Shown one piece after another: positions 48,773 through 50,161 of a stretch of DNA of 64,000 bases. Below the pieces are notes generated by a model that was not told the DNA's origin, ran no database searches, and saw only the letters and a list, made by a program, of their open reading frames with translations. The position numbers and the translations under genes were made by a program. Position 1 is the first letter of the stretch. Each line of letters begins with the position of its first letter. The stretch covers positions 62,186,001 to 62,250,000 of the forward strand of contig CM097885.1 of the NCBI GenBank assembly GCA_044892525.1. Direction: 5' to 3'. This DNA is from Schmidtea polychroa (taxonomy: Eukaryota).

Positions 48773-50161
48773 CTACTCAGTCCTACTCTTCGCGTCTCGC
48801 CTCACCGCTATTTTTATGTATATAGTGTCGTTTCTCGTCATGTCTTCTACTTTCCGCTGTAGGATGAAATTCGGTGCTCCAGTTGCTGGTCCTTCTTCTT
48901 CCAAGGGCCTTTGGTAACATACGAGGTTTCCCGCTGTATGGAAACTCTGTTCATGTATACTTTGATAGTTCATCATTGCGAGGTCTATTTTTGCTTTGAA
49001 TGGCCATTCTATTAACTCGTCGTATAGCCCTTTGCACATCAAGAAGAATACTGAGAAATGCGTTCCGTATGCACTTCCATCCCCGTTGGGGTATGCTTTC
49101 ATTTTCATTTTATACCCGTTTTTCCATGAGTAGAATGCTGGACTTAGTAATGTTGTATCCTTTCCATTTCTCGCTCTCTGCATCTTCTCTTTTACTCCCG
49201 TTATTTTCCATATGTATGGAGCCGTGGGTATTAATTCGTTGAGGTTTAATTCGCTTACCTTTTGATGTAGTTCTTTCACCATAATGTTGCTAGTTTCCAC
49301 TAGATCTGTCTGTATCTTTGTACTTGTTCTCGCCTCTTCAAATGCTTCCTTTTCTTCCAATAGTTCTTTTACCAACGCTTTTAGCGAGACTATTTCTCTT
49401 TCTAAGTTCTCGGTTTTTCTTTCGTTTTCTTGTAATACCGTTGACCATATTTCCGCGTGTGTTGATACGTTTTCTGCTAGATGTTGGGGTAATTCCCCTC
49501 GGTGTAATTGTTTCTGACATCCCCATTTTCCTAGCACACACGTTATCTTTTTTCTTTCACATTCTTTTAGATGTTGAGCGAGTTTTATTACTCCAGATTT
49601 ATCGCATTTATTGGGACATTCTCCTCTGAACCCTGCGCACACTTTCTCCTCTTGTATGTTGTGATGTTGACTGATTAGTTTTTTCCAGGTGTCGGTTTCT
49701 CCGCAATACTCACATTTCTCCAGTCTTTCTTCGCATCGACTTTGATGTTCTGCTTCTTCATTGACTTTAATCTCTTCCTGGCAACGTTTGCATTGACTGA
49801 TTTTATACTCGCATTGCTCCATATGTTGCCTCACTTCCCATATCACTCCTCGCCAATTGCATGGGGTGTTTTTACATCCTAAATTTGAATTTAACATATC
49901 TTTCACGGCTGCTTTATCTTCGTTTGTATCTCCCAAACTTGTTATCATGGTTTCTTTACATACTGGGCACCGTTGTGGTCCCTTCTTTATTATCTCCTCT
50001 ACACATTCTCTGCACATTCTGCATCCACATCTGGTTTGGTGAGGTTCTCTTAATAAGCTCTTGCATATTCCACACGTTACATGGTTGTGTATTCGAATTG
50101 TGGTGGACTTTCTGACTTGTTCAACAATTTCCTTGAATTCTTCTCGTTGTCGCTTATCCAT
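48773..50161 (-). CDS. TRAF: Complete intronless TRAF-family protein (RING, TRAF zinc fingers, coiled coil, MATH), 462 aa
   Basis: CGICKSLLREPHQTRCGCRMCRECV...CPVC; repeated Cx2-4C...H...C fingers; YIWKI...SPAFYS...GYKM...YPNGDG...GTHFSVFF...EWPF...DTIYIKIAV. Confidence 0.93.
   Translation of the reverse strand: MDKRQREEFKEIVEQVRKSTTIRIHNHVTCGICKSLLREPHQTRCGCRMCRECVEEIIKKGPQRCPVCKETMITSLGDTNEDKAAVKDMLNSNLGCKNTPCNWRGVIWEVRQHMEQCEYKISQCKRCQEEIKVNEEAEHQSRCEERLEKCEYCGETDTWKKLISQHHNIQEEKVCAGFRGECPNKCDKSGVIKLAQHLKECERKKITCVLGKWGCQKQLHRGELPQHLAENVSTHAEIWSTVLQENERKTENLEREIVSLKALVKELLEEKEAFEEARTSTKIQTDLVETSNIMVKELHQKVSELNLNELIPTAPYIWKITGVKEKMQRARNGKDTTLLSPAFYSWKNGYKMKMKAYPNGDGSAYGTHFSVFFLMCKGLYDELIEWPFKAKIDLAMMNYQSIHEQSFHTAGNLVCYQRPLEEEGPATGAPNFILQRKVEDMTRNDTIYIKIAVRRDAKSRTE

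What the first reader, a model, noticed from the sequence alone, without database searches (positions are those of the whole stretch)
48773..50161. A retroelement carrying a complete TRAF gene
An intact, intronless RING-zinc finger-coiled coil-MATH gene lies between pol and the 3' LTR, in the same orientation and with the same acceptor-ATG signature as its neighbours, so it appears to be cargo rather than a host gene. The RING has Cys where TRAFs usually have His (CGCRMC). TRAFs are TNFR/TLR signalling adaptors (established). Retroelement carriage could modulate host immunity and contribute to the large TRAF repertoire reported in planarians (inference).
Basis: partly seen in the sequence, partly recalled or inferred. 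Interest (0 to 1): 0.78.

Follow-up and report, generated by a model that had tools for sequence, protein, structure and literature searches.

The report
TRAF gene carried by giant retroelement
A 30-kb retrovirus-like jumping element of a planarian carries its own complete, long-conserved copy of a TRAF immune and cell-death signalling gene, which extends the known habit of these elements of carrying genes that tamper with host cell survival.

Summary
Confirmed. The 462-aa ORF (48773-50161, minus) is a complete TRAF (RING, zinc fingers, coiled coil, MATH) inside a 30,598-nt Burro-type Gypsy element with env, 99.5% identical 4.25-kb LTRs, a 4-nt TSD and a tRNA-Pro primer site. It is fixed cargo: 85 of 85 pol-end matches are followed by TRAF DNA, 92 of 92 TRAF matches follow pol, dN/dS is about 0.1, and codon composition matches the element, not host TRAFs. 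A second Burro family (at least 265 matches) has a 33%-identical TRAF in the same place, beside a BIR-RING IAP; the element TRAFs form one clade. Two corrections: the His-to-Cys RING is the norm in this genome's host TRAFs (24 of 24), and host TRAF diversity comes largely from separate host arrays, so the elements add copies, not variety. MATH carriage by Burro is in print; a whole RING-bearing TRAF 3' of pol was not found, but two key papers were unreadable. Likely role (inferred): a spliced accessory adaptor/ubiquitin ligase that tilts TNFR/IAP-type signalling toward survival of the host cell. Expression and activity are untested. The scan had noted this Burro family before, not this gene.

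The parts
48773..50161 (-). Complete TRAF accessory ORF, 462 aa: all-Cys RING 30-68, zinc fingers about 96-235, coiled coil about 232-304, MATH 316-453
50162..50250 (-). 89-nt AT-rich spacer ending in TAG-AA-ATG (candidate splice acceptor), one AATAAA
   Evidence: TAG kept in 30 of 30 copies; use as an acceptor is inferred
50251..50610 (-). 119-aa accessory ORF, homologous to the 151-aa ORF that precedes the TRAF in the second family
   Evidence: dN/dS 0.13
50779..61404 (-). env (Monjiviricetes-type fusion protein)-protease-RT-RNase H-integrase-ankyrin part of the giant polyprotein
61405..64000 (-). gag zinc knuckles and gag extension; same frame as pol but cut off by an in-frame stop in this copy; no MATH domain here; continues beyond the window
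47517..48554 (-). 345-aa coiled-coil-like accessory ORF, homologous to the 532-aa ORF of the second family
   Evidence: dN/dS 0.08
46633..47343 (-). 236-aa accessory ORF, homologous to the 255-aa ORF of the second family
45917..46574 (-). last accessory region: short ORF with hydrophobic N-terminus followed by a second short frame; no match to the 328-aa ORF of the second family
41406..45658 (-). 3' LTR, about 4.25 kb, 99.46% identical to the 5' LTR (which lies 3.75-8.0 kb beyond the window end); holds a 252-aa ORF at 41937-42695
41402..41405 (+). target-site duplication ATAA (same four bases follow the far end of the element)

Best explanation
The ORF is a fixed accessory gene of a Burro-type giant, env-bearing Gypsy LTR element. 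It was acquired once, long ago, from the planarian TRAF lineage by an ancestor of at least two Burro families and has been kept by purifying selection during element replication (shown; about 0.95). It is most likely expressed from a spliced sub-genomic mRNA that joins a 5' leader to the acceptor just before its ATG (inferred). The protein most likely trimerises through coiled coil and MATH and acts as an adaptor and RING ubiquitin ligase in the cell that expresses the element, working with IAP-type RING proteins of the same elements to tilt TNFR/IAP-type death and innate-immune signalling toward survival of that cell (inferred from TRAF biology and from the neighbouring cargo; untested).
For: Linkage: 85 of 85 pol-end motif matches have TRAF DNA downstream (77 by motif, 6 by full-length protein match, 2 with only the 5' 880 nt) and 92 of 92 TRAF motif matches have pol upstream. 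Selection: dN/dS 0.116 over all pairs of 30 copies, 0.104 for 41 copies against the window, lower than the pol C-terminus (0.21), and 0.148 for 7 copies of the second family; all 33 Cys/His of residues 1-235 kept in 30 of 30. Age: 32-33% identical TRAF at the syntenic place in a second family; element TRAFs one clade, 100/96 and 99/95, on the planarian side of a 100/99 split from other animals' TRAFs; third-position A/T 0.48/0.14 like pol (0.47/0.18), unlike six host TRAFs (0.31-0.38/0.30-0.44). Acceptor signature 11 of 13. Company: IAP-type RING ORF 5' of gag in both families and a BIR-RING IAP next to the TRAF in the second; a Burro1 IAP is reported to protect stem cells from apoptosis (Lee et al. 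2026, seen only as cited in PMC13465017). TRAF2-cIAP partnership is established knowledge (recalled).
Against: No expression, splicing or activity was shown. The window's family has no BIR-containing IAP, so the IAP partner would have to come from the host or the other family. The MATH peptide groove departs from TRAF2/3 (Leu-Val-Cys 413-415 where TRAF2 has three serines, Lys355 for Arg, Thr427 for Ser; role of these residues recalled), so it may not bind the usual receptors. The one tested viral TRAF, ISKNV ORF111L, promotes rather than blocks apoptosis (PMC3352826 abstract). A placement of the element clade as sister to, not inside, planarian TRAFs is not rejected (p-AU 0.146), and all these branches are long. 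The first 30 copies were picked by protein similarity, which lowers dN.
Confidence: 0.6

Rival explanations
1. Same cargo status, but the protein is a decoy: it joins host TRAF trimers through the coiled coil and, with its altered MATH groove, uncouples them from receptors (dominant negative).
For: Coiled coil is the most constrained part (dN/dS 0.065); groove residues differ from TRAF2/3 and from host TRAFs, which keep the first serine; the second family also carries a lone MATH inside its polyprotein.
Against: RING and fingers are intact with all ligands kept; a decoy would not need them. MATH is also under purifying selection (0.13).
Confidence: 0.17
2. Same cargo status, but the protein is a substrate-redirecting E3 ligase that serves the element directly: the re-shaped MATH recruits a restriction factor for degradation or helps particle assembly and release, with no role in TNFR-type signalling.
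For: Intact RING with divergent groove; element has env and several other ubiquitin-related ORFs; accessory genes of complex retroviruses often work so (recalled).
Against: No candidate substrate; neighbouring cargo is of the apoptosis pathway (IAP; BCL2-like motif reported in PMC6431247).
Confidence: 0.18
3. One-off retrocopy or host gene trapped in this insertion, or neutral passenger DNA.
For: Single-frame host TRAFs exist in the genome.
Against: At least 100 loci, all in the same element context; no poly-A (longest A run 5); dN/dS about 0.1; conserved in a second family; element-like codon composition.
Confidence: 0.02
4. Direction reversed: host planarian TRAF arrays descend from element-borne TRAFs (domestication), or accessory ORFs are resolved by spliced-leader trans-splicing or internal promoters instead of cis-splicing.
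For: Sister placement not rejected; AATAAA in 3 of 5 spacers; several host TRAFs are single-frame.
Against: No host locus of 18 in the MATH trees falls inside the element clade; host MATH domains are more canonical than the element's (Pfam 110-144 bits against 88-100); AG-to-ATG offsets are not multiples of three, so a leader-supplied start would mostly be out of frame (flatworm leader ending in AUG is recalled).
Confidence: 0.08

Closest known systems
Burro1/GYPSM1 and Burro2-4 giant Gypsy LTR elements of planarians (Jurka 2007, Grohme et al. 2018, as described in PMC6431247 section 7, read)
   Same: About 30 kb, multi-kb LTRs, gag with three CCHC knuckles, env in frame between gag and protease, PR-RT-RH-IN, ankyrins, accessory ORFs, a MATH/TRAF-C domain and IAP-type cargo.
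   Different: The review describes MATH as a domain inside the polyprotein (Burro1) or in an upstream accessory ORF (Dugesia tigrina element). Here it is a whole RING-finger-coil-MATH TRAF in its own ORF 3' of pol; the window's family has no polyprotein MATH (0 of 7 copies looked at) and no BIR, while the second family has polyprotein MATH, the TRAF and a BIR-RING IAP together.
Burro1 B-IAP (Lee et al. 2026, Dev Cell; not held, seen only as cited in PMC13465017)
   Same: Accessory ORF of a Burro element taken from the host apoptosis toolkit; the second family here has a BIR-RING ORF right after its TRAF.
   Different: B-IAP is reported as functionally tested; the TRAF is not tested here, and the window's family lacks the BIR ORF.
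Metazoan TRAF2/3/5-type adaptors (PDB 1ca9, 1flk, 8zuk, 7l3l) and planarian host TRAFs
   Same: Domain order, fold, 28-36% identity in the TRAF domain; all-Cys RING shared with planarian host TRAFs.
   Different: Element-borne, hundreds of copies; peptide-groove residues diverged; RING ligand 4 is Cys, not His as in vertebrate TRAFs.
Virus-encoded TRAFs: ISKNV ORF111L and other megalocytivirus and giant-virus TRAF-like proteins
   Same: Host TRAF captured by a replicon.
   Different: Those are large dsDNA viruses; best named structural matches are only 18-23% identical, so no sign of common origin; ORF111L is pro-apoptotic by its abstract.

Membership tests
Burro giant Gypsy LTR elements | Total length about 30 kb with long LTRs, TG...CA ends, TSD, primer-binding site | tested here: met
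   30,598 nt, 4.25-kb LTRs 99.46% identical, TSD ATAA; 16-nt match to the 3' end of genomic tRNA-Pro(TGG) 8 nt behind the 5' LTR
Burro giant Gypsy LTR elements | gag with CCHC knuckles, then env-like fusion protein before PR-RT-RH-IN, then ankyrin repeats | tested here: met
   Pfam zf-CCHC; Monjiviricetes_fusion 752-1091, RVP 1281, RVT_1 1594, RNase H 1815, rve 2126, Ank 2531
Burro1/GYPSM1 proper | MATH domain inside the polyprotein | tested here: not met
   absent in the window copy and in 6 of 6 other copies; present in the second family
Burro1/GYPSM1 proper | BIR-domain ORF | tested here: not met
   only an IAP-type RING ORF 5' of gag; BIR-RING ORF present in the second family
Burro giant Gypsy LTR elements | BCL2-like, SUMO-like and dUTPase-like motifs found by profile-profile search | not tested
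   Pfam at E 0.01 listed none; no profile-profile search was run
Burro1-4 named families | Sequence identity to the published family sequences | not testable with these tools
   published Burro sequences are not held; Grohme 2018 not held
TRAF | C-terminal TRAF-C/MATH domain preceded by a coiled coil | tested here: met
TRAF | N-terminal RING followed by TRAF-type zinc fingers | tested here: met
   RING C30-C33-C45-C47-C50-C53-C65-C68; alignments to TRAF5/6 RING-finger structures E 1e-11 to 2e-14; Pfam zf-TRAF hit only in the second family's protein
TRAF | Canonical receptor-peptide groove of TRAF2/3 | tested here: inconclusive
   Tyr357, Phe407, Gly428 kept; serine triad, Arg and Ser positions changed (functional roles recalled)
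TRAF | Trimer formation, E3 activity, signalling | not testable with these tools

The most novel reading that the evidence does not exclude
Burro elements carry an ancient, self-contained TRAF-IAP ubiquitin-signalling module (whole TRAF plus BIR-RING IAP or IAP-type RING) expressed from sub-genomic mRNAs, as complex viruses do; with several hundred intact copies it sets the death and innate-immune threshold of planarian stem cells, so that a retroelement TRAF is part of what makes these animals regenerate, and it has not been described as such.
Probability: 0.2. Interest if true: 0.85.

Novelty: new variant of a known kind. Interest (0 to 1): 0.52.

Why it matters
It adds a whole signalling adaptor/E3 ligase, kept under purifying selection across two families that are only a third identical in this protein, to the cargo of Burro elements, right beside the IAP that is reported to support regeneration. 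That gives a concrete next RNAi target, a reason to strip element copies out of planarian TRAF counts and RNAi/piRNA analyses, and an example of a retroelement with a TRAF, a kind of capture otherwise seen here only in large DNA viruses. It is tempered by the fact that MATH carriage by Burro is known and that the main Burro papers may already show this ORF.

Tried and rejected
Expression: no RNA holder listed; four runs laid were all contigs, two only guessed to be RNA, and showed no joint with canonical splice ends among the 15 of 21 joints shown: no evidence either way. Protein search of the 5.8-billion collection gave only 17 distant unnamed TRAFs at 24-29%. Idea that element piRNAs could explain the reported SMEDWI-3 turnover of host traf mRNAs (PMC6824462 passages): best 26-nt matches between element TRAF/MATH DNA and 30 host MATH exons have 4-8 mismatches (shuffled control 7-8), so no support. 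Idea that the all-Cys RING is an element innovation: rejected. Idea that host arrays derive from the element: no support. One search had four loci in the wrong orientation; redone. In one search two starts were entered a few bases off; one was corrected, the last one was still three bases off, and the 5-of-6 count is the same either way. Grohme 2018 and Lee 2026 were not held.

Full report
Observation. The ORF at 48773-50161 on the minus strand is one open frame of 462 aa. Pfam finds a RING at 30-68 and MATH at 316-453; the best solved relatives are TRAF3 and TRAF2 (E about 1e-28 to 1e-26); the N-terminal part aligns to the RING and finger regions of TRAF5 and TRAF6, with Cys47 standing where they have His. 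An AlphaFold model from an 8-sequence alignment (mean pLDDT 78, pTM 0.35, so domain arrangement is not reliable) shows a helix at 232-304 and a MATH sandwich, and all listed Foldseek PDB matches are TRAF domains. Pfam zf-TRAF did not hit this protein, but did hit its homologue in the second family.

The element. Upstream on the same strand lie a 119-aa ORF and a 3506-aa frame with an env-like fusion protein, protease, RT, RNase H, integrase and ankyrins; downstream lie ORFs of 345 and 236 aa and an LTR. Fetching the next 28 kb of the genome gave the other LTR: 4261 aligned bases at 99.46%. The element is 30,598 nt, TG...CA, flanked by ATAA on both sides, with a 16-nt match to the 3' end of a genomic tRNA-Pro(TGG) behind the 5' LTR and a 159-aa IAP-type RING ORF before gag. 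I saw no purine-rich tract before the 3' LTR. In this copy the gag-pol frame is broken by two in-frame stops; 5 of 6 other copies looked at have a far longer open frame over that region. This anatomy is that of the Burro elements of planarians (PMC6431247, section 7 read in full); the host is inferred to be a planarian from that and from the nearest named proteins.

Is the TRAF cargo? A protein search of the own genome scored 92 of 1861 candidates, all full length at 92-100% identity, 83 or more without a stop. All 30 loci fetched align to the window over both flanks (29 over nearly the whole 4.4 kb, one over 3.9 kb). An exact 20-mer from the end of pol has 85 matches and one from the TRAF 92; 77 pair at 1.8 kb. 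Of the 8 unpaired pol matches, 6 have a full TRAF and 2 carry the first 880 nt and then break; all 15 unpaired TRAF matches align to pol upstream, one with a 750-nt deletion over the TRAF start. So 85 of 85 and 92 of 92, at least 100 loci; both motifs were chosen from the 30 best copies, so older, more diverged copies are under-counted. There is no poly-A after the stop. dN/dS is 0.116 over all pairs of 30 copies (RING region 0.30, fingers 0.10, coil 0.065, MATH 0.13) and 0.104 for 41 copies against the window, compared with 0.21 for the pol C-terminus. The first 30 copies were ranked by protein similarity, which biases dN down; 12 motif-chosen copies were added. Third-position base use matches pol and not six host TRAFs.

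A second family. A MATH search (150 of 1551 candidates scored) showed two more repeated types. Three places read in full show a second Burro family laid out as RING ORF, polyprotein with an internal MATH, 151-aa ORF, 474-aa TRAF, 392-aa BIR-RING IAP, then ORFs of 532, 255 and 328 aa. Its TRAF is 32-33% identical to the window's and sits at the same place; dN/dS 0.148 over 7 copies; exact motifs give 265 TRAF and 196 polyprotein-MATH matches. The window's family has neither the polyprotein MATH (0 of 7) nor the BIR ORF. An unnamed database protein, P0031, is 37.5% and 34.6% identical to the two, has no close copy in this genome and is taken as a third element TRAF on the tree alone, without genomic context.

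Origin. In full-length trees the two element TRAFs and P0031 form one clade (100/96 in 45 rows; 99/95 in 27 rows). With sponge, brachiopod, echinoderm and fish TRAFs (named), three unnamed proteins and one host locus as outgroup, the clade falls with planarian TRAFs (100/99), but a position as their sister is not rejected (p-AU 0.146); branches are long and three rows have odd composition. Rows were chosen by hand from 167 proteins and 30 host loci. MATH-only trees add the polyprotein MATH and one unnamed protein to the element group with unstarred support, and place none of 18 host loci inside it. One old capture from the planarian lineage is the simplest reading.

The all-Cys RING is present in 24 of 24 RINGs found in 30 host-type loci, and in 21 of the 99 database proteins in which the motif was found (78 have His, 68 of 167 gave no motif), among them Dendrocoelum and echinoderm TRAFs. 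And the genome holds its own diverse TRAF genes: the 30 best MATH hits are mostly clustered on one contig with RING and MATH in separate frames or exons, plus single-frame genes with no Burro pol in 15-30 kb around them (one unrelated gag-like and one LTR-ORF match lay about 6 kb away). The clustered loci were seen only with 1.5-kb flanks. The elements therefore add at least about 560 MATH loci but only three sequence types; the reported expansion (121 MATH domains, 99 transcripts in S. mediterranea; PMC6109357 passages; PMC7586133 passages) is probably mostly host genes.

How it probably works. TAG or CAG lies 0-6 nt before the ATG in 11 of 13 accessory ORFs of the two families (the other two have AAG), against 19-20% of about 700 other ATGs each; the window was set after looking. 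The TAG before the TRAF is kept in 30 of 30 copies. This points to spliced sub-genomic mRNAs; RNA data here could not test it. The RING and finger ligands are all kept, while the peptide groove of the MATH has changed relative to TRAF2/3 (the role of those residues is recalled). With IAP-type cargo in both families and a report that the Burro1 IAP protects stem cells (Lee et al. 2026, seen only through PMC13465017 passages), the most likely role is an adaptor/ligase that favours survival of the expressing cell; decoy and redirected-ligase models remain open, and the tested iridovirus TRAF is pro-apoptotic (PMC3352826 abstract).

Novelty. MATH/TRAF-C, BIR and ankyrin cargo in Burro elements is in print. 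Ten literature searches (listings only, with passages of PMC8532177, PMC11410931, PMC13238120, PMC11663942 and PMC6824462 also read) found no description of a whole RING-bearing TRAF 3' of pol, but Grohme 2018 and Lee 2026, their figures and supplements, could not be read and may show it; the figure of PMC6431247 was seen only as its legend. Virus-borne TRAFs are known from large DNA viruses. The scan's notes hold one earlier report on this Burro family's polyprotein and none on this gene. Verdict: real, fixed and selected cargo; a new variant of a known kind; interest 0.52.

Noticed in passing
L031:4842-5321 (-), 2.8-3.3 kb beyond the window end: 159-aa ORF with an IAP-type C-terminal RING (no BIR) between the 5' LTR and gag; a 27%-identical ORF sits at the same place in the second family.
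   Followed up: partly
window 41937-42695 (-); related frames at 39243-39970 (-), 35640-36119 (+) and in L032: The LTR itself holds a 252-aa ORF without Pfam match; 28-55% identical relatives lie in other repeats nearby, suggesting an LTR-encoded protein shared by several families.
   Followed up: partly
L070-L072: Second Burro family carries both a polyprotein MATH and a whole TRAF, directly followed by a BIR-RING IAP, and ends with a 328-aa ORF with a hydrophobic N-terminus.
   Followed up: partly
G000:C2 about 3-5 Mb and 105-124 Mb (L040-L063): Large clusters of host-type TRAF genes with a RING, apparently few or no further fingers, and a separate MATH exon.
   Followed up: partly
G000:C1 from 130901010 (L108): Long tandem array of tRNA-Pro(TGG) genes with a 475-nt period; the T-loop/acceptor pattern has 2196 matches in the genome. 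This is the tRNA that fits the element's primer site.
   Followed up: partly
L084 and L085: Two separate copies break off at the same base inside the TRAF (window 49278), suggesting a deleted sub-lineage that has itself been copied.
   Followed up: no
window 45659-45700: No purine-rich tract before the 3' LTR on the element strand; a GC-rich stretch stands there instead.
   Followed up: no
L031 about 3900-4200 (-): About four 74-nt tandem repeats in the leader between the 5' RING ORF and gag.
   Followed up: no
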